Positions 2,883 to 51,667 of a stretch of DNA of 57,443 nucleotides are shown here, piece after piece. Location: NCBI GenBank assembly GCA_964557155.1, contig CAZKZC010000001.1:1-57443 (forward strand), in the 5' to 3' direction. This DNA comes from an uncultured Candidatus Saccharibacteria bacterium. Lineage in GTDB: Bacteria > Patescibacteriota > Minisyncoccia > Minisyncoccales > GWA2-38-27. A program made the position numbers and the translations under genes. The notes below the pieces were generated by a model, which did no database searches, was not told the DNA's origin, and saw only the letters and a program-made list of their open reading frames with translations. Position 1 is the stretch's first letter. Each line of letters starts with the position of its first letter.

Positions 2883-3128
2883 CTATTCGTTATAGAAATG
2901 AGATTTTAAATTGTCTTCGGGGATATATTTTAATGATTGGCGATAGATAGCTTTGAGGGTTCCTTTGTCTAATTCGGGATGATTGGGTATTGTTAGCGTT
3001 TGTTTCGTTTTATCAGATTTAATTCGTGATAATTTAACATGACTACCTTTTTGAAGAGCAATAACAAAACCAAAAGATGAAAGTATTTTTATTACATCTT
3101 GCCCTGATAAAACTTTCAACTTAGGCAT
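2883..3128 (-). CDS. hicA: HicA-family mRNA interferase toxin
   Basis: MPKLKVLSGQDVIKILSSFGFVIALQKGSHVKL...TIPNHPELDKGTLKAI is the YcfA/HicA pattern. The start at MPKLK (3128) overlaps the hicB stop by 8 nt. The listed ORF extends to 3143. Confidence 0.8.
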   Translation of the reverse strand: MPKLKVLSGQDVIKILSSFGFVIALQKGSHVKLSRIKSDKTKQTLTIPNHPELDKGTLKAIYRQSLKYIPEDNLKSHFYNE

Positions 3129-3348
3129 AAACCTGAGAATCAAGTTCTAAATTTGCTAAAATAGATGGTTGAGGAGCCAAATCAAAATCTGTTAGATCTT
3201 CATTTTCTAATTGAAGAGCAATAGCTTCTTTTAGATTAACAATAAGTTCATCAAGAGTTTTTGCTTGAGTAACAACCGGTAAATCAACAGATTCACCAAT
3301 ATAATATTTATCTCCTTTATATATACGGACTTGAATAATCTTTTTCAT
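3121..3348 (-). CDS. hicB: HicB-family antitoxin (UPF0150-like)
   Basis: 75-aa acidic protein (YYIGESVDLPVVTQAKTLDELIVNLKEAIALQLE) immediately upstream of, and overlapping, hicA. Confidence 0.75.
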   Translation of the reverse strand: MKKIIQVRIYKGDKYYIGESVDLPVVTQAKTLDELIVNLKEAIALQLENEDLTDFDLAPQPSILANLELDSQVYA

Positions 3349-3575: not shown

Positions 3576-4700
3576 ATGGTAGAACAACAGAACAATCAAA
3601 AAGAACAGCAAGAAGAAAATCGGCCAGGGAGACGAGCAACGGCACAAATAGAAGCAATAAAGAGAGATATGGAAAAAGCTACAAAAACGGTAAATCTGTT
3701 AATCAAAATTATTGTATTTGTGGCTGGGGTTTGTTTAATGCTTGGATGTATTTGTTTTCTTTTCGGGCAATGGATTGTTGGCTGTGTCTTTTGCACTCCC
3801 GCGGTCACGGTGTTGTTTCTTTTTCTTGGCGGATTAATGGTCGTTGGGCCTGAAGAGAGATTCTTGATAGAATTTTTGGGACGAGCATATTGCGTCAAGA
3901 ATCCTGGCTTAAGATGGGTTTCCCCCGTATTAATGCGCAAAAGGATGGTCGCTTATACTTGGAAACAACCAGTTGATTTGTTTCCTGAGAGGCGATATCC
4001 TAACGGAGTGCATATTGATCTTAAAAAAGGTGGAAAAACTCAATTAGTTGAACCTATTTTATGGGTTCGGATGGATGGCGTTGGGACAGATCTAGAAGAC
4101 GAAAGTGTACTCCGAATGGCCTACAGTGTTGATGACTGGAAAGAGGCAGTGACAGAAGGCGGAGAAGATGCCCTACGAACCTGTCTTAACAATCTCATGG
4201 TTGAAGAAGTGCTTTCTGCTACACACGACTCTAGTAGAGCATCGTGGTGGGAGGCAGTGAGAGAGAACTTTCCAGCACTGGAAGAGGCCATTAAGAGTTA
4301 TGGTCTAGTGCCAGTCAGCCTAACCATCAGTGATTTCAATTGGGACCCAGCAGTTGTAGCATCAAGACAGAAAGTTTTTGAAGAGGAAAGGTCGATTGCA
4401 ATTGCTGAGCTTAGCAAAGAAGCTTCAAAAGACGAAATTGGTCAGAAGGCCTTAGAGATAGGTGGTCTATATGGGGTGATGGCCAAACTCTTGATGCAGA
4501 AACAATATGGCGGACATACAGAAGAGGAGGCCAAAAGGGTTGCCAAAGAGCTTGTTATCTACTTCAAGGGAGCAGATACAGGAACTATAACTCATCTGCA
4601 GGGGGGTGGCGACTTATCACCACTTCTTACAGGTATTCTTGCTTTGATGCGTGGTAGTCGTAGAGAAGAAAATAGTCCTTCTCTTCTGCCTCCCGCTTAA
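3576..4700 (+). CDS. Membrane-anchored SPFH/band-7-like protein
   Basis: Two N-terminal hydrophobic helices, then FLIEFLGRAYCVKNPGLRWVSPVLMRKRMV, which resembles the start of an SPFH (stomatin/prohibitin) domain. A coiled C-terminal part follows. Motif-level call only. Confidence 0.5.
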   Translation: MVEQQNNQKEQQEENRPGRRATAQIEAIKRDMEKATKTVNLLIKIIVFVAGVCLMLGCICFLFGQWIVGCVFCTPAVTVLFLFLGGLMVVGPEERFLIEFLGRAYCVKNPGLRWVSPVLMRKRMVAYTWKQPVDLFPERRYPNGVHIDLKKGGKTQLVEPILWVRMDGVGTDLEDESVLRMAYSVDDWKEAVTEGGEDALRTCLNNLMVEEVLSATHDSSRASWWEAVRENFPALEEAIKSYGLVPVSLTISDFNWDPAVVASRQKVFEEERSIAIAELSKEASKDEIGQKALEIGGLYGVMAKLLMQKQYGGHTEEEAKRVAKELVIYFKGADTGTITHLQGGGDLSPLLTGILALMRGSRREENSPSLLPPA

Positions 4701-4723
4701 CGAAAAAAGAATTTAAAAATCTT

Positions 4724-4751
4724 AAAGGGATCACCTCGGTGGTCCCTTTTT
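4724..4751. terminator. Bidirectional intrinsic terminator
   Basis: aaagggatcacctcggtggtcccttttt: a GC-rich stem with an A run before and a T run after, between convergent genes. Confidence 0.7.
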
Positions 4752-4764
4752 ATTTTATCTTAAA

Positions 4765-7161
4765 TTATCCAAATATAATTATATCTGCTTGTTCTCGTGA
4801 TGTAAATCCTTTTATTCTTTCGTCAGGCCACCCCATTTTTCTTAATTTATCTATCTGACTGTCTGTTAGTATTGGATTTATTTTTGCTTGCTTTCCCGTT
4901 GTAGGTGTTTTTGTTTTTTTGCTACCTCCTGCTCCCGTTGTAGGTGTTGGTTTTACATTTACTTTTTGTCCGAGAGGTCCCATTCCGAGTCCGATTGCTG
5001 GCGAGCTTGGTGGCGTGTTGAGAGATGAATCATCCGAATCACCTTGTGGTATAAAGTTCATCTTTCTCCAACCAGTCTTTTTAAATCGATCGTCTTCTAC
5101 AGAGACAAAATACTTGCGATCACCAAAGTTTTCTTTAATATGCTTGTCAAATTCTCTCCATGCTTTTTTATGATCTGCGGTTTCAGTCGAAACTCCTGTT
5201 TCGTCATCTATTATGTCTGCTAATAATTCTGCGATCTTACTTTCGCTTAAGTCTGATTTGCCCAAAATAGATTTCTTATTTCCTCTAACAAAATCAGAAA
5301 ACATCTCATCCATGGTTTTAAGTTGGGTATCTTGACCATTCTTAATTTGACGATTAACTTGTAATTGTCTGTCTCTATCAAGGTGAGCCATGACTCCACC
5401 TGTAACCTTTTGGCTTTTAAGACTTTCAGGTTCCCAATCTTTAAGATGGTCTCTAGCTTCTGTAACAGCTTTATTCACGGCAACTTGGGCAGAAGCCATC
5501 TGTGGCTTGCCATCTTTGTCTAATCTGCCATAACTTCCAATGTTTTTCTCGTATGCTACTTCGGCTAAACGAGGATCTCTTCTTAATATTGATCCTAGCT
5601 TGCCTGAGTTGTTAGCATCCACGAGGATAGGAGCCATGATTCTTTTAAAATCTTTGTCGCTTGTTATTTCTTCATCATTCATGTCTTTCCATTTCTTGCC
5701 TCCTGCCCCCTTGCCAATTTTTCTTTTAAAAGCTTCGAAGAGGTCTTGAGAATCATTTTGTGCCAACAGTTGAGAGTACCATCCTGTGGCTTCTGCTCCC
5801 TTAATCTTTTCGTTTGCTAATTCGTCACCTATCACCGCGCCAGAGTTTCCTTTGGCATCCTCCATTCCCTTGTCTATAGTAGGTTTTAAATTGCCAAATT
5901 CTTTAAGTTTTTTTGGAGCTGCCCACTTAGAGATGGCAAAGGGCTTAAACCTGCCTCCAGCAGTTGGCGACCAGTTACCTAATTTTATCATTCTAGAATA
6001 TACACCACCAGCAGTTTTTCTTGCCATTCCTTCGACTGTAGGCTTTAAACCTCTTCCTATCTTTTTAGCAGTTGTCCCTGGCATTCTGGCTACTCCCCTG
6101 CCCACTCTTCCAAATGTTTTTGCATGGCTCCATTTACCTGCCCTTATTGCTGCCGATGAACCCATGGCGGTAGTTTTAAGAGCGATAAAGAAACCAAAAT
6201 AAATCATGGCGATTATTACAAAATAAGGAATAATGTTATCAAGAAAGCCTGTTAGGGGTGCGTCTAGTCCCGGTGCCTTTAGGTTCGCCCTGATTGTCTC
6301 ATTTAAAACTGTTGCAGATCGTATTGCTAGGTAGAGGAAAAATGCTAAAGGTATTCCAATAATTGACCATTGAATAAGTTGTTTCCACCATAAATCCCAA
6401 AAACTCTTGGTAGAGGGGAGTATCCACGAAACAAGAGCTAAAGGAGATAAAATAACTAAAATCCAAATAGCAACATATCTAAACAAGAAAATAAACGCAA
6501 AAAGAAAAAAGGCAAAACCAATAGAAATATTTAATATTATCATTGTTGACCCTTTAGCCATTAGAGATCCTTTCGTTGATAAAGACCCAAAGGTAATTTT
6601 TACTAAATCGCTAAATATATCTCCTATATCAATACCCGTTAATATGCCAGAAACTCCTTGGCCTATTCCTGCTAGGAAAAAATGCATAACAATATTTGTA
6701 GCATCAACAATTAATCCACAGATGACAGGGGCAAAGTTTACTAGCAGAGCAACAATAACTAATTTTATAAAGGTCTTTTTGGTTCCGTACTCTCTTATTT
6801 GTAAACTAATAGCTATAGCAATGAAAACTAAAGCAACCACTAATCCTAAATTAACAAAGTTTTTAGTAATGTCTAGCCCAATTCTAATAATTTCATTCCT
6901 TGCTGGGTCAGTATAACTTAAACTCATAAAACCAGGACTAGTCACCCAATTAAGAAGAGCTCCGGTAATTTTGGCAAATAAATTTGTAAGAAGAACGGTT
7001 ACGCCCATAAAAATTCCTATCTGTGATGATGGTAAAGCCGTGAGAATGCCCATGAAGCTCACATCCAGGGCAACAGTTTTTAAGGGAAATAAAAGTAAGG
7101 CAAAAACAGAACTCAACGTAATCAATATTTTTTTATTATTTGAATAAAGTTTTTTGAACAT
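4765..7161 (-). CDS. 798-aa polytopic membrane protein, VirB6/TrbL-like by architecture
   Basis: Signal/anchor helix plus about 7 further hydrophobic helices in the first ~340 aa. A ~450-aa hydrophilic Lys/Gly/Asp-rich C-terminal region follows. It is the last gene of the operon, starting 10 nt after the preceding stop. Confidence 0.8.
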   Translation of the reverse strand: MFKKLYSNNKKILITLSSVFALLLFPLKTVALDVSFMGILTALPSSQIGIFMGVTVLLTNLFAKITGALLNWVTSPGFMSLSYTDPARNEIIRIGLDITKNFVNLGLVVALVFIAIAISLQIREYGTKKTFIKLVIVALLVNFAPVICGLIVDATNIVMHFFLAGIGQGVSGILTGIDIGDIFSDLVKITFGSLSTKGSLMAKGSTMIILNISIGFAFFLFAFIFLFRYVAIWILVILSPLALVSWILPSTKSFWDLWWKQLIQWSIIGIPLAFFLYLAIRSATVLNETIRANLKAPGLDAPLTGFLDNIIPYFVIIAMIYFGFFIALKTTAMGSSAAIRAGKWSHAKTFGRVGRGVARMPGTTAKKIGRGLKPTVEGMARKTAGGVYSRMIKLGNWSPTAGGRFKPFAISKWAAPKKLKEFGNLKPTIDKGMEDAKGNSGAVIGDELANEKIKGAEATGWYSQLLAQNDSQDLFEAFKRKIGKGAGGKKWKDMNDEEITSDKDFKRIMAPILVDANNSGKLGSILRRDPRLAEVAYEKNIGSYGRLDKDGKPQMASAQVAVNKAVTEARDHLKDWEPESLKSQKVTGGVMAHLDRDRQLQVNRQIKNGQDTQLKTMDEMFSDFVRGNKKSILGKSDLSESKIAELLADIIDDETGVSTETADHKKAWREFDKHIKENFGDRKYFVSVEDDRFKKTGWRKMNFIPQGDSDDSSLNTPPSSPAIGLGMGPLGQKVNVKPTPTTGAGGSKKTKTPTTGKQAKINPILTDSQIDKLRKMGWPDERIKGFTSREQADIIIFG

Positions 7162-7171
7162 AAGACGTTTT

Positions 7172-8596
7172 TTAACGAGAACTTAAGACCTTGCCTCTGA
7201 TTACTATAGCTGACTTTGTACAAGGGCGACAATCACGAAGAGCTTCTCGCGTATCCTGATTGGGATCGAATATAGATACACACTCCCTAATCCCATCTCC
7301 AGTTCGTTCACATTGACCAATTGGTTGGTCAAGTAGATTATTGTCGTTGACGCTAATTACTTCGCATATATTGCCTTGGAAATCATCTCCTGAAAACAGT
7401 ATAACAAGATAAGAGTCGACGGGTTCGAACTTGATAGACCTGGTTCCTTTTAGAATATCATTAGCGTTATTAGACGCTGCTAGATTGCTTAAATCTAGAG
7501 TTTCATTTGATATTTTATCATATCCAGGCTCCGCACTTACTTTATAAGATGCCTGCCCAAGTGTTCCTGTTAGTCCAGGAGGACAAAGAGCGCCTTCATT
7601 GTGATTAAGGCATTGAGAGAAGGTAGCTCCTGTTTCGGCGGGAAGTACATCGCCATCAGGTTTTTTAAAAACAGTAAATGATTTAATTCTACTGAAATCT
7701 ATATTGCCAATAACTCCTTCAACGCTAGTTCCGTAAACTCTACGGAATAATCTACATTTTCCTCTAAAATTATCTTTTTCGTGAAAAACTATTCCGTAAC
7801 CATATTCCCAACGCTCTTCGTTTATATTAAGAGTGGCAGGATTATCATATATTCTTTCTGGTATAACAAATATGCTATGATCTTCAGGAGGACTTACATT
7901 GAGAGCAAAATTAAACACATCTACATTGCCAGAAAAATTTGCTCTGTAACAAGAACCCTTGTTTGTGTCTGCCACATTTTCATTTTCGTTATTCATTATA
8001 CTTCTAAACTCATTGGCTATTTTGGTTATTTCTTCGTTTGTGCTTGTTTCGTTTTCGTGTATGGCCATATATCTTCTGATGGTCTCGCCTATGAGAGGCA
8101 CTTGCTTATCGCAAAGATATATCCCTGGGGCAACTATATTACCTATAACACTTAGGGGCTGATCAGTTCCGCCTAGGTCGGTTAAATTAGGATTTATGCT
8201 GTTGAATAAAACGAAGGCACTGATGAGAATAATGGCTCCGAGGAAGGAGGCAAGCATGCTGTTCTTGGCCTCAAGAAGCTGGCCAGCGTTTCCGGCTGAC
8301 ATAGTGTATGTTATACCGGCACTAATCATAACATAGAGAATTATGAGACCAATGATGGCCATAGCGAAGCGGAAAAGGTATTGGACATATTGGGGGAGAC
8401 CAGTGGTAGGCGTTAATGTTAAGTCATTAAAAACAGGATAAACTATTTCAAGAGCTCTTTCTTCTGCCTGAGGATCGGTTTGAGCAAAAACAGACGATAT
8501 GGGAGCAACTATAATCAATAAGCAAACTATAGCGAAAAGTGACTCGGTCACTTTTCGTGGTTTTTTAGGTTTAATATAAGATGTTGAGTATTTCAT
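7172..8596 (-). CDS. 474-aa protein: signal peptide + TrbC/VirB2-like two-helix pilin module + C-terminal Cys-containing domain
   Basis: GLPQYVQYLFRFAMAIIGLIILYVMISAGITYTMSAGNAGQLLEAKNSMLASFLGAIILISAFVLFNSINPNL is paralogous to modules in ORFs 11320-13653 and 15980-16468. An alternative GTG start at 8551 would give MTESLFAIVCLLIIVAPISSVFAQ. Confidence 0.8.
   Translation of the reverse strand: MKYSTSYIKPKKPRKVTESLFAIVCLLIIVAPISSVFAQTDPQAEERALEIVYPVFNDLTLTPTTGLPQYVQYLFRFAMAIIGLIILYVMISAGITYTMSAGNAGQLLEAKNSMLASFLGAIILISAFVLFNSINPNLTDLGGTDQPLSVIGNIVAPGIYLCDKQVPLIGETIRRYMAIHENETSTNEEITKIANEFRSIMNNENENVADTNKGSCYRANFSGNVDVFNFALNVSPPEDHSIFVIPERIYDNPATLNINEERWEYGYGIVFHEKDNFRGKCRLFRRVYGTSVEGVIGNIDFSRIKSFTVFKKPDGDVLPAETGATFSQCLNHNEGALCPPGLTGTLGQASYKVSAEPGYDKISNETLDLSNLAASNNANDILKGTRSIKFEPVDSYLVILFSGDDFQGNICEVISVNDNNLLDQPIGQCERTGDGIRECVSIFDPNQDTREALRDCRPCTKSAIVIRGKVLSSR
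8533..8557. repeat. Perfect 11-bp-stem palindrome cgaaaaGTGACtcgGTCACttttcg
   Basis: The core AAAGTGACTCGGTCACTT recurs at 14886-14904 and 56371-56390. This copy lies 14 nt past the stop of the 928-aa gene, inside the annotated 5' end of the 474-aa gene. Confidence 0.8.
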
Positions 8597-11357
8597 TTGA
8601 ACTATTGGTAATATTTTGATTAATATTTACTATTTCCCCTATATTAACACGAATATCATCCATTGGGTATGGGTTCCCTCCTGAAGGTGGGACACTTTCA
8701 TACCCGGGATAAAGACCTGACAGATCAAGATCAAAATCAAAAGATGGTGTTTGAAATCCAGGAAGGTCAAATCTCTTTTGTTTGCTATAGCTTAAGTCGC
8801 CTAAAGGGATAGATGGAAGCTGGTAATTTATAGGATTAGTTAGTGGAATTTTCTTTAAATTTTCTGGCCAGGGGATATCTATTCTGTTAGCTATTTTGGC
8901 TAGTTCAGCATTCACAGTATCCATAGGAATGTTAATTTTATCTAGAAGAGCATAAGCATCTGGTATTTTAAACATACCATTTTCTACAACTGTTCGTGAT
9001 AAACTTTCAGCTATAGCCTCTTCTACTTTTCTCTTAACATTATCTAGTTGTTCATGAATAGATTTTTTAATTAGGTCTTCAAGTATTTTAGCGGCTTTAT
9101 CAAGCTGAGACTGAATTTGTGACTGAACGGTATTATCAAGAACGCCTTGAATTTGACTAATTCTGCTAGCCACATTTTGCTTCAAAGAACTATTAACATT
9201 TTTACAAAATTTATCAACATTTATATATTTATTATCGCACAAATCGGGTATTTCTGGAAATCTTGGCCAGAAAAAGTGATAATCGGAGAAACCAATATCT
9301 AATGGGATGCCGGAAATTCCTCCACTAACACATCCATTGGGGATAGAAACCAACGAAGAAACTAATCCTAGAAGCATATTTTCTATACTGATGTCTATGC
9401 CTGTAAAATTCAAAATAACTTCTGGTTGTGGAAGGGATATTTCAGGTATTTTCATATCCAAACTAAGCAAATCGGTTAAGTCAATTTCAGGCATTGGAAT
9501 AGGGATAGACGGAAATTTAATATCATTCATTTTTATGGGTAGTGGATCAAGCTGAGGACCATCTGGAATGGCGGGCATATCAGCATAAATAGTTGGAATA
9601 TCAATATCAGGAATTCTTAAAGATGGGTATTGAAAATCTACTTTCATTGAAGAAAGATCTCTTTGACAGCTATTTAGATTGCAGGGTTTTAAATCGGGAA
9701 GAATTAAATCTTCAAAAATCAGACTCGGAAGGCGAACCCTTAGAAAGGGCATAAAGTTAAAAGAAGGTAGATTGATGTCAGGAATTATTGTGTCTGGAAG
9801 TTCTATTTTTGGGAATAAGGTTGAGTTAATAGAAGGCAAAGAAGGGCAATCTAACCGAATACTATTTTGGGAATGATTAGAAACTGTTTGCGAAGCACAA
9901 GAGGCCGATGTTCCTTGGTATGTTTGAGCTCCAGGATTTTCAAATGTTCTATTAAATAAAGGAAGAAACTTGCACGATTCCGGAATGTTCATTTCCCCAG
10001 CCTTTTTTAATTCAGAGCATTTGTTTACTAAGGTGTTGAGATTGCAAGTTGGTGGTGTTGTTTCTCCTTCTGATCTAAATAACTCCTGACATTTTGCGTT
10101 AACATTAGTTATTTCATAGCATATTTCAGGAGGACGAGCACAATTGGTTCCTGTGCAAGTGGAATGTCTTTGTCGTAAAATTTGGCATTGATCAATGATT
10201 GTAAGATGAACAGCATCTTCATTAAAACATTGTTCGTATCTTTCTTGGACAGGGTTGTTATTAATATCTGTTAAGCCGGGCAATTCTTGGCATCTATCAG
10301 ACAACCAAGATAATGTTTGTAAAAACCATTCCAAGTCAATATACTGATTGTTTCCAGGGGCATTTTCCTTTGTGCATTGATAAGAACTGACATCTAATAA
10401 TTGGGTGCAAGAAAAGCTAGCCGGAGGAATCCCCGGAATATCTAGATAGGGAGGGTGAAAAACAATCGGATCTAAAGAGATGTCTGATAATCTGTCTGTT
10501 GGAATATCAGGAAAGGTGATATTGATATCTTGCAGATCAATATCAAAATCGCCTAAATTGGCAGTGTCTGACATCTGAATGCTATCTGGTAAATTTAATC
10601 CAACTTCGTCAATTGATATTCTTCCTAAGTCCAAATCACCTAAACGAACCCCTATTTCAAAAGCCATAGTTATTGGTTTTTGCCCTCCGCCACTTCCAAA
10701 AACGCAAGCATTAATTACGGGGATGGTATTGGTGTTGCACTGAGCTTGACAATGGTTTTTAGCTGAATAAGCCGAATTGTCCAATATATCAATATTTTTT
10801 GAAGCTGAATCAACAACATTTTCGCTAGAAGAAATTATATTGTTTAAATTAGATTCTAGTAATATTGCCTGGTCTTTATCCATTCTTTCTAGTTCTTCAG
10901 CTAAGCCAGTATCCATTTCTGTTTGAAGTAATTCTTTTAAAGAATCTATTTGCTGTGTTTTGCTTTTAATTTTTAATTTGGTTTTTTCTAAATCTTCCTT
11001 ATTATTACAGGTTTCACCGAAGACACCGACATTTCCATCTCTTATACATTGAGATATAGCATTGGCACAATTACATTGGGATGTTTGATTACTTAATTCT
11101 TCGTTAAAAAATTCTAGGTCTTGAGTAGTTTGATTTAATTCGCTAATAATAAATTTTAATCTATTGGGATAGTGAGGGTAATATTCTAGCCATTGGGCAA
11201 AAGCATCCGAACTAGTGCCTGATTTTTCTAGCAATGGAACAAGGATATTAATTAAAACCGCTAGAATTAAAACTCCTGCTATAATATATCTCTTTTTTTG
11301 ATTAAATAGTTTTATCATTTTAATAATCGCTTGTTTCACAATCGTATAATTCTCCAA
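8571..11357 (-). CDS. 928-aa N-terminally anchored Cys-rich protein with many short [LIF]P[DES][IL] motifs
   Basis: One N-terminal helix (YIIAGVLILAVLINILV), coiled-coil stretches, numerous Cys (by-eye estimate, over 30) and repeated motifs such as LPDTIIPDINLPSF, IPDIDIPTIYADMPAIPDGP and FPSIPIPMPEIDL. An alternative start at 11318 (MIKLFNQKK) leaves a 1-nt gap after the upstream stop. Confidence 0.8.
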   Translation of the reverse strand: MENYTIVKQAIIKMIKLFNQKKRYIIAGVLILAVLINILVPLLEKSGTSSDAFAQWLEYYPHYPNRLKFIISELNQTTQDLEFFNEELSNQTSQCNCANAISQCIRDGNVGVFGETCNNKEDLEKTKLKIKSKTQQIDSLKELLQTEMDTGLAEELERMDKDQAILLESNLNNIISSSENVVDSASKNIDILDNSAYSAKNHCQAQCNTNTIPVINACVFGSGGGQKPITMAFEIGVRLGDLDLGRISIDEVGLNLPDSIQMSDTANLGDFDIDLQDINITFPDIPTDRLSDISLDPIVFHPPYLDIPGIPPASFSCTQLLDVSSYQCTKENAPGNNQYIDLEWFLQTLSWLSDRCQELPGLTDINNNPVQERYEQCFNEDAVHLTIIDQCQILRQRHSTCTGTNCARPPEICYEITNVNAKCQELFRSEGETTPPTCNLNTLVNKCSELKKAGEMNIPESCKFLPLFNRTFENPGAQTYQGTSASCASQTVSNHSQNSIRLDCPSLPSINSTLFPKIELPDTIIPDINLPSFNFMPFLRVRLPSLIFEDLILPDLKPCNLNSCQRDLSSMKVDFQYPSLRIPDIDIPTIYADMPAIPDGPQLDPLPIKMNDIKFPSIPIPMPEIDLTDLLSLDMKIPEISLPQPEVILNFTGIDISIENMLLGLVSSLVSIPNGCVSGGISGIPLDIGFSDYHFFWPRFPEIPDLCDNKYINVDKFCKNVNSSLKQNVASRISQIQGVLDNTVQSQIQSQLDKAAKILEDLIKKSIHEQLDNVKRKVEEAIAESLSRTVVENGMFKIPDAYALLDKINIPMDTVNAELAKIANRIDIPWPENLKKIPLTNPINYQLPSIPLGDLSYSKQKRFDLPGFQTPSFDFDLDLSGLYPGYESVPPSGGNPYPMDDIRVNIGEIVNINQNITNSSNEILNILY

Positions 11358-13653
11358 TATCTATATGGAGGTGAGTTATTTTATCTAAGACATATGCTTC
11401 GGGAGCACATTTTTTAGCCGTGTTTATTATTTCATCTATATATTTTTTCTGAAGCTCAGAAGACATATCAAAGTCCACAGCATAAGATTCTTCTGTATCT
11501 CGACAAAAGGTGCCTCCATAATGAGCCGAAACTCTCATTTTGTTTTGTTCTATTCCATAGGTGTGAGAGCACTCTTCCTGATTTTTAGGGCTGATGCCCC
11601 ATTCACATGTTCCGTTATATAGTTTTTCATCAGAAATAGAAGATATTAATCCTATTATTTCCTCTGTTTCTTCTTCTGCTTCTTGATATTTGTCTAGCCC
11701 TTGACGCATACAGGAAAGAAGCTGTTTGAGTGGTTTGGAAGCGTCATTGTCATACTGGTTGTAATTTCGGACACCACTAGTGCAATCAAATCCTTTGGGA
11801 CAGCCGTCTTCTGAGGGTAGTATAGAATGTTCTTTAAGGGGAACGATATACAGAGGGTTGGAATCAGATGAGATTGGCAACGGAGGAGTATTTGCCGGAG
11901 AGCAACAATAAACATCTCTTGGATTGCAACTAGTCATAACTGTTCCGCTAGGACCATAATTACCCTTGGCACTTTCACAGCTTAATAGAGTAAATTCTGG
12001 ATTATTAATACTAGGATCAAAGCAAAGGCGGACAGCGGTATCAAGGTTGTGAAGATTATAGGGGTTTTTGGGCTCTTCTGCGTGGTATAGTACCTTTGGA
12101 AATATCTTCTTTATTTCTTCAATAACTCCAGTATCAATTTCAAGAATTTTATCTTCTGTCTCTTTAATTTCTTCTGATTTTTTGGTGATTTCTTCTACGG
12201 GGCAGGCTTCTCCGTTGCATCCTTGAACGGATTGAAGACATTTTGATTTGCAGAAAACAGCCATTGGGCCACATGGAATTATAGTACAGCATCTATACCA
12301 TGGATTAGGTATGCAAGCACAAGAAGGTTCGCAATAAGTCCGATTGCATTGCGACACAAGCTCGGTCATCTCCTGAACTTGTTGAGCCATTTTTTCAGTT
12401 AAGCGAGATAATTCCTCTAATTTGAAAATAGCAATAATTGCCAATTCTCTAAGATTGTCCATTGTTTCTCCTGTTGGTATTCTAGTGTGGCAACTAATCA
12501 ACTGAACTTCATATGGATCAGCTGTCATCTCTGGGAGAACGGGTTCTTCAGAAAGCTCCTTTATTTTCTGGGGGATATATGGAGCGTCATAAATAGTTCC
12601 TCCCACGGAGCAATAAAAAGTCAAGGCTTCATCTCCCGATTCTTCATAGCCGGATATTTTAATAACTTGATTTCCTAATGCCTCAAAATCTTTTTTAGCC
12701 AATAGAAGATCATTAAGTGTCATAAATTCTTGATTTTGGGTTCGACAAGAAATAACTTCTCCTTCTATTTCTTGAAACTTCCCCAACTCTTTTCTCAATA
12801 ATTCTTTATGCTCAGAAATTTTCTCTTTATACTTTGAAAGGGTTTTAATTTTCCCTTTGTCTATTTCTAGAACCTTTTCTATTCTTTCTCTGGCTGTTGG
12901 GTTGTCATCATCATTCTCGCAAGGATCTCCCGAACAGCCGATAGGCATAGAGCCCGTTTCGGGTTTTGTGCAAAGAGCTTTGGTGTTTTCGCATCGGCAT
13001 TCATCGGTGATCGTTTTTAGGTATTTGTTTAAATCAGAAATTCTGTTAAGCTTATCGTTTTCTAAATTAGAATCGTCTACATCTATTTCTTGTTTGAGAA
13101 AACCTTCAAATTCCGTGATAAGAGTTTCTAATTCTTCTGTTCTTTTTTTCTCCCAAACACTGCCGTCTCTCAATGCTTTTTTTAGTGGCAATTCGGCCAC
13201 AATCCATGTAAGAACTTCTCTGTCTGGAGCAGTATAGGTCTTGATGTCGTCTAGATCAATCGGAGTTAATGGACCAAAATCAAAAATTAATAATTGGGGG
13301 TTAATATTAACCAAGATTAAATATGAAGAAAAAAGAATAATTATTCCCAGAGCAGCACCGGTTAGCTGATCTTTAGCCGCTTTCAATTTAGATGGATCGG
13401 CTCCTGACATTATATATAGAACACCTCCATAAACCAAAGAACCGAAAGCTAAAAGACCTGAAATAGCAATAGCAAAGTTGAATATATATTTTACATAAGA
13501 AGGCAATCCATCTTGAACTGTTTGTGGCGCCTCGCCCATAATGCTTGGATAGTCAACCTCCAAATCTTGGGCTAAGACGAGAGAATAGATAGAAACAGAA
13601 AACAAAAAAACCGTAAAAGAAATTAAGAAAAGTTTTTTAGTTTTCCACAGCAT
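11320..13653 (-). CDS. 777-aa protein: signal peptide + TrbC/VirB2-like pilin module + Cys-rich stalk + C-terminal LAS/M15-like peptidase motifs
   Basis: N-terminus MLWKTKKLFLISFTVFLFSVSIYSLVLAQ. Pilin module GLPSYVKYIFNFAIAISGLLAFGSLVYGGVLYIMSGADPSKLKAAKDQLTGAALGIIILFSSYLILVNINPQL. Cys clusters (SQCNRTYCEPSCACIPNPWYRCCTIIPCGP). C-terminal SAHYGG...AVDFD and THLHIDIG. Confidence 0.85.
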   Translation of the reverse strand: MLWKTKKLFLISFTVFLFSVSIYSLVLAQDLEVDYPSIMGEAPQTVQDGLPSYVKYIFNFAIAISGLLAFGSLVYGGVLYIMSGADPSKLKAAKDQLTGAALGIIILFSSYLILVNINPQLLIFDFGPLTPIDLDDIKTYTAPDREVLTWIVAELPLKKALRDGSVWEKKRTEELETLITEFEGFLKQEIDVDDSNLENDKLNRISDLNKYLKTITDECRCENTKALCTKPETGSMPIGCSGDPCENDDDNPTARERIEKVLEIDKGKIKTLSKYKEKISEHKELLRKELGKFQEIEGEVISCRTQNQEFMTLNDLLLAKKDFEALGNQVIKISGYEESGDEALTFYCSVGGTIYDAPYIPQKIKELSEEPVLPEMTADPYEVQLISCHTRIPTGETMDNLRELAIIAIFKLEELSRLTEKMAQQVQEMTELVSQCNRTYCEPSCACIPNPWYRCCTIIPCGPMAVFCKSKCLQSVQGCNGEACPVEEITKKSEEIKETEDKILEIDTGVIEEIKKIFPKVLYHAEEPKNPYNLHNLDTAVRLCFDPSINNPEFTLLSCESAKGNYGPSGTVMTSCNPRDVYCCSPANTPPLPISSDSNPLYIVPLKEHSILPSEDGCPKGFDCTSGVRNYNQYDNDASKPLKQLLSCMRQGLDKYQEAEEETEEIIGLISSISDEKLYNGTCEWGISPKNQEECSHTYGIEQNKMRVSAHYGGTFCRDTEESYAVDFDMSSELQKKYIDEIINTAKKCAPEAYVLDKITHLHIDIGELYDCETSDY

Positions 13654-13700
13654 TGAATAATTATACCATCACCACTTGTCTCGTGCAACACTGAAATTAA

Positions 13701-13833: not shown

Positions 13834-13904
13834 GGGCGGGTAGTGAAACGGCATCACAAGTAACTTATACCTATTTATTGTGGGTTCGAATCCCATCCCG
13901 TCCA
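13834..13904 (+). tRNA. tRNA with anticodon UAU (Ile, AUA-reading) by cloverleaf reading
   Basis: Acceptor GGGCGGG/CCCGTCC (one G-U), D arm GTGA-AACGGCA-TCAC, anticodon arm AGTAA-CTTATAC-CTATT (A31-C39 mismatch), T arm GTGGG-TTCGAAT-CCCAT, discriminator A, no encoded CCA. Confidence 0.65.
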
Positions 13905-13961
13905 CACTCACCTTTGACTTTTGCACTATTGACAAAGTTTCTTGTATGGTATAATAAGGGT

Positions 13962-14885: not shown

Positions 14886-14904
14886 AAAAGTGACTCGGTC
14901 ACTT
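14886..14904. repeat. Palindrome AAAAGTGACTCGGTCACTT, second copy
   Basis: Lies in the divergent rsmA / LysM-M23 intergenic region, 14 nt upstream of the -35 TTGACT (14918-14923). Confidence 0.8.
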
Positions 14905-14953
14905 GTGGAAAAGGGGGTTGACTGGATATTTTCGAAAAGGTAGTATAAATAAA

Positions 14954-15976
14954 ATGAGTGATAAGATAAGTTCTTATTTAAGTAAATCATTAATCGTTTT
15001 AGCCGTTTTAATCTTCGGCTTCTTTATTTTCAGCTCAAATTCGGTGTTAAGATCTCTTGAAGATTTTTCTCTTTTAGCTTCAGCTGTAGATTCGGGTCAG
15101 GAATTATTTGTCGCAGGATCTAGTAATATTGCTAGAGAGTCCCCTAATATGAATTTTGTTCAAAATAATAGCTTAGTTGCCGTCGCTCCTCCAATGACGA
15201 TTGATGTTAATACTTTGGGAAGCATGATCGGTGGTATTGAAGAAGATGATGGTACTCGGAAAGAAATTCTTGAATATATTGTTGAGCCAGATGACACTCT
15301 TTCAACAATTGCCGACAAGTTTGATATTTCTTTAAGTACAATTTTAATAGCTAATGATCTCGGGTCTAAGTCAACTATCAAACCAGGTCAAAAACTTATT
15401 ATTCTTCCAGTAACGGGTGTTATTTATCATGTTAAAAATGGAGATACATTGGGTGATATTGCTAAGACATATAAAGGAAAAACAACGGAAATAATTACTG
15501 TTAATAATCTTTCTGGCGAGGGTAACATATTTGTCGGAGATATTTTAGTTATTCCTAATGGGAAAATACAGGTTTCTGGGTCAAGTGCTTACACTGCTAA
15601 TATCCCAGTTGGCTCAAGTTATTTTATTGCTCCTTTAGCCAAATATACAATTACCCAAGGACTTCATTGGTATAATGCTATTGATTTTGCTGCTCCTTGC
15701 GGAACGCCAATATATGCTGCCGCTGCTGGAGTAATTCAGAGAGTGGAATATGGATGGAATGGGGGGGCCGGAAATTATCTTAGAATTTTACATCCCAACG
15801 GTGTCGTTACAATGTATGGACATGTTCAGAAGAGTTTAGTTGTTCCAGGACAAAATGTTTCTCAAGGAGAAAGAATTGCTTTAGTCGGCGGAAAACCAGG
15901 AACAACTGGTGCTGGAATATCAACTGGATGTCATGTTCATTTTGATGTCCGTGGAGCTCGCAACCCCTTTCAATAA
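14954..15976 (+). CDS. LysM-repeat M23 peptidoglycan metalloendopeptidase
   Basis: N-terminal anchor helix. Two LysM repeats (YIVEPDDTLSTIADKF; YHVKNGDTLGDIAKTY). M23 motifs HWYNAIDF and GCHVHFDV. The ATG at 14954 lies 7 nt after a TAGTAT -10 box. The listed ORF starts at a TTG at 14903. Confidence 0.88.
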   Translation: MSDKISSYLSKSLIVLAVLIFGFFIFSSNSVLRSLEDFSLLASAVDSGQELFVAGSSNIARESPNMNFVQNNSLVAVAPPMTIDVNTLGSMIGGIEEDDGTRKEILEYIVEPDDTLSTIADKFDISLSTILIANDLGSKSTIKPGQKLIILPVTGVIYHVKNGDTLGDIAKTYKGKTTEIITVNNLSGEGNIFVGDILVIPNGKIQVSGSSAYTANIPVGSSYFIAPLAKYTITQGLHWYNAIDFAAPCGTPIYAAAAGVIQRVEYGWNGGAGNYLRILHPNGVVTMYGHVQKSLVVPGQNVSQGERIALVGGKPGTTGAGISTGCHVHFDVRGARNPFQ

Positions 15977-15979
15977 TAT

Positions 15980-16468
15980 ATGAAAAAAGCTTTATTCTTA
16001 TTTTTAGTCAGTATGCTTTTCTTTCCGGCTTTCGCCATGGCCAAACCTTTAGTTCCTTGCAGTTTGACTGGTGATGGCGATCTGCCAGCTTGTACGTTTT
16101 GTCATCTTTTTGTAATGTTTGGGAATATTACAGATTTTTTGTTTAAAGAAATAATTCCAATTTTAGCTGGTTTAATGATAGCCATTGGCGGAGTATATTA
16201 TCTTATTAGTCGGGGTGATCCTGAAAAACTGGCTAGTGCTAAGAAGATATTTTCGTCGGTTGCCATAGGCCTCTTGATAGCTTATAGTGCTTGGTTAATT
16301 GTTAATATGTTCTTTTTGGTAATTGGAATATCAGACTGGGAAGGTTTTCGTAATGGTTGGTGGAAAATTAATTGCCCTACGAGTCAAACACAATCATCAA
16401 CGCCTACCTATGATGAGATTGACAAATTAATGAAAGAAAACGAGAACATATTTAAAGTAAAACATTAA
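15980..16468 (+). CDS. Stand-alone TrbC/VirB2-like pilin-type protein (162 aa)
   Basis: Signal peptide MKKALFLFLVSMLFFPAFAMA, then two helices separated by SRGDPEKLASAKK (IIPILAGLMIAIGGVYYLI / IFSSVAIGLLIAYSAWLIVNMF). Same module as in the 474- and 777-aa proteins. Confidence 0.75.
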   Translation: MKKALFLFLVSMLFFPAFAMAKPLVPCSLTGDGDLPACTFCHLFVMFGNITDFLFKEIIPILAGLMIAIGGVYYLISRGDPEKLASAKKIFSSVAIGLLIAYSAWLIVNMFFLVIGISDWEGFRNGWWKINCPTSQTQSSTPTYDEIDKLMKENENIFKVKH

Positions 16469-47630: not shown

Positions 47631-47632
47631 TC

Positions 47633-48604: not shown

Positions 48605-48608
48605 ACTT

Positions 48609-49973: not shown

Positions 49974-49991
49974 GTATGGTATAATAAAACA

Positions 49992-51092: not shown

Positions 51093-51667
51093 TTAATTTA
51101 TTACCACAAAAAGATAAAGAGAAGTTATTGATTGGTAAAAACAAAAGAATGTCTATTATTCTTTGCTTTCTGATTTTGTTTTTCCTTATTTATTTAATAA
51201 TAGCCTTGTTCATAGTTAAAATTTATTTAAACGGACAACTTGCCTCAAACAAAGTTTTTTTAGAAGAAAGTGAAAAACAATTTTCACAATCAGAAACTCA
51301 AGAGCTTCAAGATAAAATTGAGTCAGCTAATAAATCTTTTAGTGGCTTAAATTCTTTTTATGATAAGAAGGTATATTTTTCTAAACTATTGGAGAAAATT
51401 GCCGTAATTTTTCCGGAGAATTTTTACTTAACAAATTTTTCAATTATGCTTGATGTTAAAGAGAAGAAAGAGGAAAATGTGGTTGTAGAAACAACAAGAA
51501 CCATCAGGGCTTCTCTCTCGGGATTTGCTCCAACAAGAGAAGAATTACTTACTTTTAAAGAGAATCTTGAAAAGGATGGTAGTTTTGAAAATATTTCCTT
51601 TCCTATATCAAATTGGGCTAGCAAAGAGAACATCAATTTCTATGTAACTTTTGATATCTCTATATGA
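51089..51667 (+). CDS. pilN: PilN-like bitopic protein
   Basis: MINLLPQKDKEK (the conserved INLLP start), one TM helix, ATGA overlap with pilM. The listed ORF starts at 51068. Confidence 0.8.
   Translation: MINLLPQKDKEKLLIGKNKRMSIILCFLILFFLIYLIIALFIVKIYLNGQLASNKVFLEESEKQFSQSETQELQDKIESANKSFSGLNSFYDKKVYFSKLLEKIAVIFPENFYLTNFSIMLDVKEKKEENVVVETTRTIRASLSGFAPTREELLTFKENLEKDGSFENISFPISNWASKENINFYVTFDISI

What the first reader, a model, noticed from the sequence alone, without database searches (positions are those of the whole stretch)
4765..13653. Four-gene coupled operon: pilin-module fusion proteins, a giant Cys/Pro-motif protein and a VirB6-like membrane protein, with no secretion ATPase
The four minus-strand genes encode proteins of 777, 928, 474 and 798 aa.
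- **Coupling.** The genes are packed with a 38-nt overlap (or a 1-nt gap using the ATG at 11318), a 26-nt overlap and a 10-nt gap. They are transcribed head-on to the expected replication direction from the adjacent oriC.
- **Pilin modules.** The 777-aa and 474-aa products each start with a signal peptide. A two-helix module with a short basic loop follows (GLPSYVKYIFNFAIAISGLLAFGSLVYGGVLYIMSGADPSKLKAAKDQLTGAALGIIILFSSYLILVNINPQL versus GLPQYVQYLFRFAMAIIGLIILYVMISAGITYTMSAGNAGQLLEAKNSMLASFLGAIILISAFVLFNSINPNL). This is the architecture of TrbC/VirB2 conjugative pilins, and it recurs in the stand-alone 162-aa gene at 15980.
- **Ectodomains.** The module is fused to 330-650 aa of Cys-rich, presumably extracellular sequence.
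- **Last gene.** It is polytopic like VirB6/TrbL and has a 450-aa hydrophilic tail.
- **What is missing.** No VirB4, VirD4 or VirB11-type ATPase, coupling protein or relaxase is in the window. The only secretion ATPase, PilB, is 30 kb away.

My hypothesis is a pilin-anchored surface display or cell-contact apparatus, possibly used for host attachment in an episymbiotic lifestyle, rather than a conjugation machine.
Basis: partly seen in the sequence, partly recalled or inferred. Interest (0 to 1): 0.88.

Follow-up and report, generated by a model that had tools for sequence, protein, structure and literature searches.

The report
Envelope half of a Patescibacterial T4SS
The four genes are real, but they are the membrane and surface half of the type IV secretion system already described in ultra-small Patescibacteria, and its "missing" VirB4 ATPase operon lies about 2.3 kb beyond the window's left edge.

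Summary
The four minus-strand genes exist as described. Two carry VirB2-type pilin hairpins and the last is VirB6/TrbL-like.

The headline "no secretion ATPase" is a window-edge artefact. On the same 102.5-kb contig, about 2.3 kb left of window position 1, lies an operon of a 132-aa protein, PrgI/VirB3, a TraC/TrsD-like protein, a 600-aa VirB4 ATPase and a 105-aa protein. In 80 species-level relatives the same genes travel together, and in some they form one contiguous block running VirB6, VirB3, TrsD, VirB4, then the three envelope proteins.

This is the oriC-proximal, relaxase-less Patescibacteria T4SS published in 2023-2025, so it is a new member of a known kind.

The literature read here does not describe:
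- a conserved, ordered trio of disulfide-rich envelope proteins;
- pilin hairpins of a distinct "LE-x-YP" subtype fused to 330-650-aa ectodomains;
- a beta-gamma-crystallin-like head on the 474-aa protein;
- a C-terminal slot on the 777-aa protein that holds NlpC/P60 or C39-like peptidases in orthologues;
- confident AlphaFold models of the 777- and 915-aa proteins with no structural neighbour in PDB, nor in BFVD for the 915-aa model.

Function is inferred to be host contact and transport, not conjugation.

The parts
11320..13653 (-). 777-aa pilin-hairpin fusion protein. It has a signal peptide (about residues 1-28), an 'LEVDYP' motif, a VirB2-type two-helix hairpin (about 46-117), a 32-Cys helical/beta ectodomain, and a roughly 160-aa C-terminal domain with conserved S709-x-H711, D727 and H763.
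   Evidence: ORF. PF18895 at 32.2 bits. Topology and Cys count. AF2 model with pLDDT 79.4 and pTM 0.71. No PDB structural neighbour. Orthologues carry Peptidase_C39_2 (5e-18) or NlpC/P60 (3e-7) in the C-terminal slot.
8571..11318 (-). 915-aa single-pass, Cys- and Pro-rich envelope protein (928 aa if the TTG at 11357 is used). Its N-terminal CxC/coiled-coil region is related to the middle of the 777-aa protein. It has a Pro/Ile/Asp short-repeat beta region at about 490-650 and a long helix at 701-773.
   Evidence: The 777-aa protein's residues 208-333 match P0176 residues 66-180 at E 3e-5. Family size is 197 representatives at E<=1e-3 among 1.84 billion proteins. AF2 model with pLDDT 78.9 and pTM 0.47. 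No neighbour in PDB or BFVD.
7172..8596 (-). 474-aa pilin-hairpin fusion protein. It has a signal peptide, an 'LEIVYP' motif, a hairpin (about 72-132) and an ectodomain with two beta-gamma-crystallin-type Greek-key motifs (YGIVFHEKDNFRGK...S, YLVILFSGDDFQGN...S).
   Evidence: PF18895 at 22.6 bits, below cut-off. BLASTP to 777-family modules at E 1e-22. A profile of 27 orthologous ectodomains has beta-gamma-crystallins as its seven best PDB hits: betaB2 0.0018, 3hzb 0.0039, Protein S 0.011. Pfam Crystall appears in 3 of 27 members.
4765..7161 (-). 798-aa extended VirB6/TrbL-like polytopic membrane protein. The TM domain spans about 1-325 and the basic, Cys-free hydrophilic tail about 326-798. 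The tail is inferred to be cytoplasmic.
   Evidence: Precomputed weak TrbL_3 hit. Thirteen of 38 homologues hit Pfam TrbL, best E 1e-9. TrwI at E 0.59 in the TM region. The query itself has no Pfam hit at E<=1.
13660..13688 (-). Sigma-70-like promoter TTGCAC-17 nt-TATAAT. It ends 6 nt before the ATG of the 777-aa gene, which suggests a leaderless or near-leaderless operon transcript.
   Evidence: Read directly from the sequence. Not tested further.
4715..4746 (-). Imperfect GC-rich hairpin followed by a T-rich run, just after the VirB6-like stop codon, between convergent genes. Likely the operon terminator.
   Evidence: Read directly from the sequence. Not tested further.
15980..16468 (+). 162-aa stand-alone VirB2-like pilin of the short Cys-flanked subtype (PAC-TFC-HLF ... 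WW-x-I-x-C). Candidate major pilin of the same system.
   Evidence: PF18895 at 44.3 bits and TrbC at E 0.0011. Subtype analysis.
14903..15976 (+). LysM-LysM-Peptidase_M23 cell-wall hydrolase, 3 nt upstream of the 162-aa pilin gene. Candidate VirB1-like function for the system.
   Evidence: LysM at 1.3e-24 and M23 at 7.3e-24. Next to ksgA and VirB6 in 55 of 80 relatives. PMC12102498 reports M23/LysM domains on VirB1-like proteins of Patescibacteria.
3576..4700 (+). 374-aa membrane protein with a weak SPFH/Band_7 match, convergent with the VirB6-like gene. It is a conserved neighbour but membership of the system is uncertain.
   Evidence: Band_7 at E 0.02. The orthologue in L006 carries PF01145. 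Present next to VirB6 in 38 of 80 relatives.

Best explanation
The four genes encode the membrane and extracytoplasmic half of the chromosomal, oriC-proximal type IV secretion system characteristic of Patescibacteria. That system derives from MPF-FATA, the monoderm conjugation class. The cytoplasmic and inner-membrane half lies on the other side of the dnaA block, just outside the window. It comprises a 132-aa protein, PrgI/VirB3, a TraC/TrsD-like protein, VirB4 and a 105-aa protein.

**Shown**
- Gene identities.
- The split layout on this contig.
- Conserved linkage of all parts across about 80 species.

**Inferred mechanism**
- The VirB6-like protein forms the membrane channel or platform, and its basic tail faces the cytoplasm.
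- VirB4 extracts VirB2-type hairpins from the membrane.
- The short 162-aa pilin polymerises into a pilus-like conduit.
- The 777- and 474-aa proteins use the same hairpin as an extractable anchor. This would place them as minor, tip or base subunits that display large disulfide-stabilised ectodomains outside the cell.
- One ectodomain ends in a slot that is a peptidoglycan-type peptidase in orthologues. The other is a beta-gamma-crystallin-like, probably Ca2+-dependent, binding head.
- The 915-aa protein is a single-pass stalk or scaffold partner of the two.
- The assembly serves host-cell contact and transport of protein or metabolites rather than conjugative DNA transfer.
For: - VirB4, PrgI and a TraC-like protein lie on the same contig, 7.3 kb from the VirB6 gene.
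- All 80 species-level loci fetched through VirB6 are Nealsonbacteria, Parcubacteria or Paceibacteria MAGs. ksgA is present in 60 and the M23 peptidase in 55.
- Among the 23 loci with at least 9 kb on both sides, 17 have VirB4 in the fetched flanks and 22 have a pilin-module gene.
- The order pilin+mid777, then P915-like, then pilin+c474 is kept in 37 loci. It occurs in at least three genomic placements: upstream of VirB6 (16 loci), downstream of VirB4 (4) and next to yidC (8).
- Some relatives show one contiguous run of VirB6, u132, VirB3, TrsD, VirB4, u105 and then the trio, for example L027, L043 and L051.
- The ectodomain side is extracytoplasmic by VirB2 topology (signal peptide plus a two-helix hairpin) and by 4-7-fold Cys enrichment.
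- A crystallin-like head is supported. The hydrolase slot swap is supported.
- PMC12102498 describes this T4SS near dnaA, dnaN, rnpA, rpmH and ksgA, with TrsD, PrgI, VirB6 and VirB2-like arrays and usually no relaxase.
- PMC10633639 shows that the T4SS and its pilin array are essential in Southlakia epibionticum.
Against: - No experiment exists on this lineage. Pilus formation, VirB4-driven extraction and tip location are all inferred.
- A 330-650-aa C-terminal cargo is unprecedented for VirB2-type pilins and might prevent polymerisation altogether.
- The 474-aa module is below the Pfam cut-off on its own, and the 798-aa protein has no direct Pfam hit.
- The crystallin E-values are marginal (0.002-0.03).
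- The C-terminal domain of the window's own 777-aa protein matched no hydrolase family.
- About 36 kb of the contig and the rest of the genome were not seen, so a T4CP or relaxase elsewhere cannot be excluded.
Confidence: 0.85

Rival explanations
1. This is an ATPase-independent, pilin-anchored surface-display or cell-contact apparatus that only borrows T4SS parts. The hairpins are plain membrane anchors inserted by Sec/YidC, and the ectodomains work as adhesins or enzymes on the cell surface without any T4SS motor.
For: - No ATPase lies inside the operon or the window.
- The large ectodomains look incompatible with packing in a VirB2 helical lattice (inference).
- In one common arrangement the trio is separated from VirB4 by the whole dnaA/yidC block.
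Against: - VirB4 is 7.3 kb away on the same contig.
- In several species the trio is directly downstream of VirB4 and u105 in one block.
- The trio never appears without VirB6, although every locus was fetched through VirB6, which biases this observation.
- The hairpin sequence is conserved at pilin-family level rather than as a generic TM anchor.
Confidence: 0.1
2. It is a conjugative or DNA-transfer T4SS. That could be an integrated conjugative element or its remnant, or a ComB-like DNA-uptake machine. The Cys-rich proteins would then be mating-pair adhesins.
For: - The core genes (VirB4, PrgI, TrsD, VirB6) are homologous to monoderm conjugation machinery (PMC12102498).
- The pilin module also hits a Mycoplasma ICE pilin-like family weakly: NF045849 at E 2.8e-6 and 2.2e-4, both below cut-off.
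- Some Patescibacteria classes link their T4SS with comF, recG and radA (PMC12102498).
Against: - No relaxase, T4CP or integrase was found in the roughly 66 kb examined.
- The locus sits at the same oriC-proximal core position, next to ksgA, dnaA, dnaN and yidC, in dozens of species. That is not the behaviour of a mobile element.
- Relaxases are rare in Patescibacteria: 109 in the whole published dataset (PMC12102498).
- In S. epibionticum, comEC-dependent transformation is dispensable while the T4SS is essential (PMC10633639, PMC12857230).
Confidence: 0.05

Closest known systems
Patescibacteria T4SS as described by Quinonero-Coronel et al. 2025 (PMC12102498) and the essential SEML1_0006-0019 cluster of Ca. 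Southlakia epibionticum (Wang et al. 2023, PMC10633639)
   Same: - Chromosomal and oriC-proximal, next to dnaA, dnaN, rnpA, rpmH, yidC and ksgA.
- Contains VirB4, PrgI/VirB3, a TrsD/TraC-like protein, VirB6 and VirB2-like pilins (PF18895).
- LysM/M23 hydrolases lie nearby.
- No relaxase or coupling protein is in the neighbourhood.
- Pilin genes occur in an array interrupted by a non-pilin gene.
   Different: - The cluster here is split in two across the dnaA block.
- Two of the three pilin-module genes are 474-777-aa fusions with Cys-rich ectodomains rather than short pilins.
- A conserved 915-aa partner sits between them.
- The papers read here do not mention pilin length, fusions, the crystallin-like head or the peptidase slot.
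MPF-FATA conjugative T4SSs of monoderms (pCF10 Prg, pIP501 Tra, pGO1 Trs, ICEBs1)
   Same: - VirB4, PrgI and TrsD/TraC-like core.
- A polytopic VirB6 analogue.
- Dedicated cell-wall hydrolases.
- No outer-membrane core complex.
   Different: Those systems have a relaxase and T4CP, lack VirB2-like pilins, and use LPXTG-type adhesins such as PrgB. None of these features applies here.
VirB2/TrbC/TraA conjugative pilins with the VirB5 tip protein (Agrobacterium VirB, RP4 Trb, F Tra)
   Same: - Signal peptide plus two hydrophobic helices joined by a short basic loop.
- Genetically tied to VirB4 and VirB6.
- A separate specialised protein at the pilus tip (VirB5) is a precedent for a few adhesive subunits on a pilus.
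   Different: - Canonical pilins are about 70-130 aa when mature and carry no C-terminal domain.
- Here the adhesin or enzyme is covalently fused to the hairpin.
- The pilin-module profile found no solved VirB2 or TraA by sequence.
Extended VirB6 proteins (Rickettsia RvhB6, F-plasmid TraG; reviewed in PMC12857230)
   Same: Five or more hydrophobic helices plus a large C-proximal hydrophilic domain of unknown role.
   Different: The tail here shares no detectable similarity with any solved protein or Pfam family. It is conserved only among the closest relatives, in 22 of 86 loci.
Microbial beta-gamma-crystallins (Myxococcus Protein S, Flavobacterium 'flavollin' 3hzb)
   Same: Paired Y/F-x-x-x-x-F-x-G ... 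S Greek-key signatures in an extracellular protein, with best profile hits to this superfamily.
   Different: - The matches are marginal.
- The two motifs are separated by long inserts.
- The canonical N/D-N/D-x-x-S/T-S calcium-binding motif was not evident on reading the sequence.
- No structure was predicted for this protein.

Membership tests
Patescibacteria-type T4SS (MPF-FATA-derived) | VirB4 ATPase encoded in the neighbourhood | tested here: met
   A 600-aa protein at L003 4323-6125 on the same contig, about 2.6 kb left of window position 1. It hits P-loop_TraG at 1e-25, AAA_10 at 3e-11, plus DUF87 and TraC_F_IV.
Patescibacteria-type T4SS (MPF-FATA-derived) | VirB3/PrgI and TrsD/TraC-like genes next to virB4 | tested here: met
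   PrgI PF12666 at 1.2e-7, above cut-off. The TraC-like PF26593 hit comes only from the precomputed table. My own hmmscan did not list it.
Patescibacteria-type T4SS (MPF-FATA-derived) | Chromosomal position near dnaA, dnaN, rnpA, rpmH and ksgA, with no relaxase or T4CP nearby | tested here: met
   Gene maps. No ORF of 500 aa or more in the window is a T4CP. About 36 kb of the contig and the rest of the genome were not seen.
Patescibacteria-type T4SS (MPF-FATA-derived) | VirB4 falls in the monophyletic Patescibacteria VirB4 clade | not tested
   No phylogeny was run. All 80 related loci come from Patescibacteria MAGs.
VirB2/TrbC-type T4SS pilin (PF18895 / PF04956) | Pfam score above the gathering threshold | tested here: met
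   The 777-aa protein scores 32.2 bits and the 162-aa protein 44.3 bits, against a cut-off of 26.6. The 474-aa protein scores 22.6 bits, below cut-off, but its module matches 777-family modules at E 1e-22.
VirB2/TrbC-type T4SS pilin (PF18895 / PF04956) | Signal peptide plus two TM helices joined by a short polar loop | tested here: met
   Hydropathy gives segments at 8-26, 56-74 and 97-115 in the 777-aa protein, and at 20-38, 77-95 and 113-131 in the 474-aa protein. The AF2 model has helices at 46-82 and 87-117.
VirB2/TrbC-type T4SS pilin (PF18895 / PF04956) | Small mature protein (about 70-130 aa) that polymerises into a pilus | tested here: not met
   Size is not met for the 777- and 474-aa proteins and is met for the 162-aa protein. 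Polymerisation cannot be tested with these tools.
VirB6/TrbL (PF04610, PF19590) | Polytopic membrane protein with at least 5 TM helices | tested here: met
   Seven hydrophobic segments within residues 12-321.
VirB6/TrbL (PF04610, PF19590) | Significant profile match to TrbL/VirB6 | tested here: inconclusive
   The query has no hit at E<=1 in hmmscan. It has a precomputed weak TrbL_3 hit. Thirteen of 38 homologues hit TrbL, best E 1e-9, and 3 hit TrbL_4. TrwI is reached only at E 0.59. Homology holds transitively.
Beta-gamma-crystallin superfamily (ectodomain of the 474-aa protein) | Greek-key signature Y/F-x-x-x-x-F/Y-x-G followed by a conserved Ser, with a profile match to known members | tested here: inconclusive
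   Two signatures are visible in alignment A5. The seven best PDB profile hits are all crystallins, at E 0.0018-0.033. Pfam Crystall appears in 3 of 27 members, best E 0.01. No structure was predicted.
LAS / peptidase M15 zinc peptidases (C-terminal domain of the 777-aa protein) | S-x-H-x-x-G-x-A-x-D and H-x-D/H metal-ligand motifs on a LAS fold | tested here: not met
   A motif-like S-A-H-Y-G-G...Y-A-V-D...H-I-D is conserved. There was no Pfam hit, no PDB profile hit, no Foldseek hit for the confident model, and hhalign against the Ply500 catalytic domain gave probability 0.1%.
Conjugative element (ICE or plasmid T4SS) | Relaxase, type IV coupling protein and integration or replication functions linked to the T4SS | tested here: not met
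   None were found in the window plus 8.7 kb upstream. The core chromosomal position is conserved across species.

The most novel reading that the evidence does not exclude
In Paceibacteria and Nealsonbacteria-like episymbionts, the VirB2 hairpin has been turned into a portable, VirB4-extractable anchor. A dedicated 'LE-x-YP' hairpin subtype would load large disulfide-rich cargo onto or at the tip of a T4SS pilus built from short Cys-flanked pilins. The cargo is a swappable cell-wall peptidase head on one protein and a crystallin-like binding head on another. This would give a monoderm a pilus with covalently fused enzymatic and adhesive 'minor pilins' that breach and hold the host envelope. 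The ectodomain folds would be new.
Probability: 0.25. Interest if true: 0.75.

Novelty: new member of a known kind. Interest (0 to 1): 0.4.

Why it matters
The Patescibacteria T4SS is essential for epibiotic growth in the one species tested. Its function is described as "completely unknown" (PMC11665869). Published surveys catalogue the core genes but not the surface components.

This locus and its 80 relatives point to concrete, testable surface parts:
- a conserved trio of secreted proteins;
- two proteins tethered by pilin hairpins;
- a probable binding head;
- a slot that alternates between different cell-wall peptidases.

These proteins are the obvious candidates for the host-contact end of the machine. 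They could be targets for antibodies, cryo-ET labelling or knock-down.

The practical lesson for the scan is that "no ATPase" claims near a window edge need the flanking contig.

Tried and rejected
1. **LAS/M15 peptidase for the C-terminal domain of the 777-aa protein.** I proposed this from the S-x-H...D...H motif. It was rejected after Pfam, a PDB profile search, Foldseek and hhalign against Ply500 all failed. Only the slot-swap argument remains.
2. **Foldseek on the 777-aa model against PDB.** Best E was 3.8.
3. **Foldseek on the 915-aa model against PDB and BFVD.** Best E values were 0.36 and 0.14, at probability 0.03 or less. No usable neighbour emerged.
4. **Pilin-module profile against PDB sequences.** It returned only generic TM proteins and no VirB2 or TraA.
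5. **Direct phmmer of the 798-aa protein against PDB.** Nothing was found. The family profile reached TrwI only at E 0.59.
6. **NCBIfam on all five proteins.** Only sub-threshold Mycoplasma ICE pilin-like hits appeared.
7. **Word-indexed homologue search for the 915-aa protein.** It found only 7 relatives. The exhaustive HMMER search was needed to see the family.
8. **ICE or horizontal-transfer reading.** I considered and rejected it because the core chromosomal position is conserved and no mobility genes are present.
9. **Regex bug.** My first regular expressions for hairpin subtypes failed and were redone.
Full report
**1. The observation**

The window carries four tightly packed minus-strand ORFs:
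- 11320-13653, 777 aa;
- 8571-11357, 928 aa from a TTG start;
- 7172-8596, 474 aa;
- 4765-7161, 798 aa.

The second gene most likely starts at the ATG at 11318, giving 915 aa. One of two public gene calls uses that start (L002, 915 aa; the L001 call is 928 aa). A 100%-identical database protein is also 915 aa, and homologue N-termini align to it. The junctions are then a 1-nt gap, a 26-nt overlap and a 10-nt gap.

A TTGCAC-17 nt-TATAAT promoter-like site ends 6 nt before the first ATG. A hairpin followed by a T-run follows the last stop codon.

Hydropathy gives a signal peptide plus two TM helices for the 777- and 474-aa proteins. It gives one N-terminal TM helix for the 915-aa protein, and about seven hydrophobic segments followed by a roughly 470-aa hydrophilic tail for the 798-aa protein.

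The three upstream proteins hold 4.1%, 2.8% and 2.3% Cys. The other 36 genes of the window hold 0.6%, and the 798-aa protein holds 0.13%.

**2. The pilin modules and the VirB6-like protein**

Pfam PF18895 (T4SS_pilin) matches the proteins as follows:
- the 777-aa protein above threshold, at 32.2 bits against a cut-off of 26.6;
- the stand-alone 162-aa protein at 15980-16468 at 44.3 bits, with a weak TrbC/VirB2 hit;
- the 474-aa protein below threshold, at 22.6 bits.

The 474-aa module aligns to 777-family modules at E of about 1e-22.

The 798-aa protein itself has no Pfam hit at E<=1. The identical database entry and many homologues carry precomputed TrbL_3 or TrbL hits. Thirteen of 38 aligned homologues hit Pfam TrbL, with a best E of 1e-9. 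The family profile touches TrwI, the VirB6 of R388, in the TM region at E 0.59.

**3. The "missing" ATPase**

Looking up the exact 798-aa protein and then DnaN returned the source contig, ENA ERZ27248922 k141_403017, 102.5 kb.

In window orientation, window position 1 falls inside dnaA. To its left lie rpmH, rnpA, yidC and jag. Beyond them is a plus-strand operon of five genes (L003 2866-6446):
- a 132-aa protein;
- PrgI/VirB3, 139 aa;
- a TraC/TrsD-like protein, 208 aa;
- a 600-aa VirB4;
- a 105-aa membrane protein.

My own scan confirmed the VirB4 (P-loop_TraG 1e-25, AAA_10 3e-11, DUF87, TraC_F_IV) and PrgI (1.2e-7).

The operon ends about 2.3 kb left of the window edge, 7.3 kb from the VirB6-like gene. 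"No secretion ATPase" is thus a window-edge artefact. No VirD4-type coupling protein, VirB11 or relaxase was seen in the roughly 66 kb examined.

**4. Relatives**

A genome scan seeded with the VirB6-like alignment returned 80 species-level loci. All are from Patescibacteria MAGs (Nealsonbacteria, Parcubacteria, Paceibacteria). Some records are mislabelled Saccharibacteria or Woesearchaeota.

I called ORFs and searched them with iterated HMMs built from the window and contig proteins. The results were:
- ksgA is present in 60 of 80 loci and the LysM-M23 peptidase in 55 of 80.
- Among the 23 loci with at least 9 kb on both sides, VirB4 is in the fetched flanks in 17 and a pilin-module gene in 22.
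- A pilin+c474 gene occurs in 37 loci. Wherever sequence is available it is preceded, in the same orientation, by P915-like and pilin+mid777 genes.

This ordered trio occurs in at least three placements:
- upstream of VirB6, as in the window (16 loci);
- directly downstream of VirB4 and u105 (4 loci; L027, for example, reads ksgA, VirB6, SPFH-like gene, u132, VirB3, TrsD, VirB4, u105, trio);
- next to yidC (8 loci).

The trio is therefore a unit that belongs to the T4SS gene set. The caveat is that all loci were fetched through VirB6, so co-occurrence with VirB6 is built in.

**5. What is known**

This matches the T4SS of Patescibacteria described by Quinonero-Coronel et al. 2025 (PMC12102498). 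That paper reports:
- a VirB4 clade derived from the monoderm MPF-FATA class;
- TrsD, PrgI, VirB6 and VirB2-like pilins (PF18895, PF04956) encoded nearby;
- frequent location next to dnaA, dnaN, rnpA, rpmH and ksgA;
- M23/LysM domains on VirB1-like proteins;
- coupling-protein homologues usually encoded far from virB4, and relaxases that are rare.

In Ca. Southlakia epibionticum the T4SS cluster and its array of predicted pilins are essential for epibiotic growth (PMC10633639). That array comprises six sequence-divergent VirB2-like pilins (PMC12857230). The role of the system is called completely unknown (PMC11665869).

None of these texts mentions pilin modules fused to large ectodomains. NCBI already names one 85%-identical orthologue "pilin".

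**6. What the literature read here does not describe**

(a) Pilin-hairpin fusions dominate in this lineage. Of 116 pilin-module ORFs in the 80 loci, 70 exceed 400 aa and only 22 are 200 aa or shorter.

(b) The hairpins fall into two subtypes. Large fusions carry an E-x-x-Y-P motif ahead of helix 1, in 59 of 70 cases. Short pilins such as the 162-aa one carry Cys pairs flanking the hairpin, in 11 of 22 cases against 0 of 70 large fusions.

(c) The ectodomain of the 474-aa protein shows two Greek-key signatures. A 27-sequence profile has beta-gamma-crystallins as its seven best PDB hits: betaB2 at 0.0018, a microbial member 3hzb at 0.0039 and Protein S at 0.011. Three members hit Pfam Crystall weakly. 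This is suggestive, not proven.

(d) The last roughly 160 aa of the 777-aa protein form a family-specific domain with invariant Ser, His, Cys and a second His, plus a nearly invariant Asp. In orthologues at 35-38% identity the same C-terminal slot is a Peptidase_C39_2 domain (5e-18) or an NlpC/P60 domain (3e-7). This argues that the slot holds a cell-wall-type peptidase. My LAS/M15 guess for the window's own domain failed four tests.

(e) The middle of the 777-aa protein and the N-terminal region of the 915-aa family share a CxC-containing module (E 3e-5).

(f) The 915-aa family is small. It has 197 representatives at E<=1e-3, of which 88 are at E<=1e-30, among 1.84 billion proteins. Its Pro/Ile/Asp short-repeat region also matches giant 4-7-thousand-aa repeat proteins.

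(g) AlphaFold2 models are confident: pLDDT 79.4 and pTM 0.71 for the 777-aa protein, and pLDDT 78.9 and pTM 0.47 for the 915-aa protein. Neither model has a meaningful neighbour in PDB, and the 915-aa model has none in BFVD either.

**7. Mechanism**

Shown: the gene identities, topology-compatible sequence features, the split layout on this contig and the conserved linkage.

Inferred from established T4SS biology:
- The VirB6-like protein provides the membrane platform. Its basic, Cys-free tail faces the cytoplasm by the positive-inside rule.
- VirB4 extracts VirB2-type hairpins from the membrane.
- The short 162-aa pilin builds a pilus-like conduit. It is encoded 3 nt downstream of a LysM-M23 hydrolase.
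- The two fusion proteins use their own hairpin subtype to enter the same pathway as low-copy tip or base subunits. They would display a peptidase-slot head and a crystallin-like binding head.
- The 915-aa protein acts as a single-pass stalk or scaffold.

The function would be host contact and transport rather than conjugation. This is consistent with the lack of a relaxase or T4CP nearby and with the literature.

I put 0.85 on the identity as part of the Patescibacteria T4SS. I put about 0.25 on the specific "cargo-bearing minor pilin" model.

**8. Rivals**

A conjugative or DNA-uptake reading (0.05) is weakened by the absence of mobility genes and by the fixed core-chromosome position across species.

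**9. Verdict**

The domain calls are right, but the headline is wrong. The locus is a new member of a published system. It adds useful, undescribed detail on the surface components and two confidently modelled proteins without known structural relatives. Interest is moderate (0.4).

Noticed in passing
L006 19437-22196 and L008 (same species); L065: The VirB4 gene of some relatives is about 1,260 aa and carries Intein_splicing and LAGLIDADG_3 domains. That is an intein inside the T4SS ATPase.
   Followed up: no
window 13660-13688 (-): The TTGCAC-17-TATAAT promoter-like site ends only 6 nt before the ATG of the 777-aa gene, which suggests a leaderless transcript. None of the three downstream genes has an obvious Shine-Dalgarno sequence, consistent with translational coupling.
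   Followed up: partly
window 15980-16468 (+) and short pilins in L075, L083 and others: Short stand-alone pilins carry conserved Cys pairs on both sides of the hairpin (P-C-x-x-C-H-F-F ... W-W-x-I-x-C). These could tie the N- and C-terminal ends together by disulfides, a possible stand-in for the head-to-tail cyclisation of TrbC/VirB2 pilins. Large fusions lack this and instead have an E-x-x-Y-P motif.
   Followed up: partly
window 2883-3348 (-): A HicA-toxin gene (81-86 aa) with a small upstream partner sits between dnaN and the SPFH-like gene, inside the otherwise conserved oriC-proximal block.
   Followed up: no
window 3576-4700 (+): A membrane protein with a weak SPFH/Band_7 match is a conserved convergent neighbour of the VirB6-like gene in 38 of 80 relatives. 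It may belong to the system or may simply reflect conserved synteny.
   Followed up: partly
window 13834-13905 (+): A tRNA-Ile with anticodon TAT lies directly upstream of the operon promoter. From my own knowledge this is an uncommon way to read AUA in bacteria, most of which use a lysidine-modified CAU tRNA.
   Followed up: no
window 43388-52203 (+): A type IV pilus cluster lies in the same window: PilB-like T2SSE ATPase, PilC-like T2SSF, an N_methyl prepilin with a CarboxypepD_reg domain, and several unannotated ORFs. It is the second envelope machine known to be essential in Saccharibacteria.
   Followed up: no
window 8571-11318 (-), residues about 490-650: The Pro/Ile/Asp short-repeat region (LPDxxIPDIxLPSF...) of the 915-aa protein matches giant 4,000-7,000-aa proteins, with up to 35 repeated stretches in one protein. 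It is a repeat module shared with very large proteins of unknown function.
   Followed up: no
window 20975-23173 (+): A 732-aa protein whose only recognisable part is a C-terminal bacterial SH3_3 domain. It may be another cell-wall- or surface-associated protein.
   Followed up: no
L008-L081 record titles: Many genome records that carry this Nealsonbacteria/Parcubacteria-type locus are titled 'uncultured Candidatus Saccharibacteria', and one is titled 'Woesearchaeota archaeon'. These are probably generic or wrong taxonomic labels.
   Followed up: no
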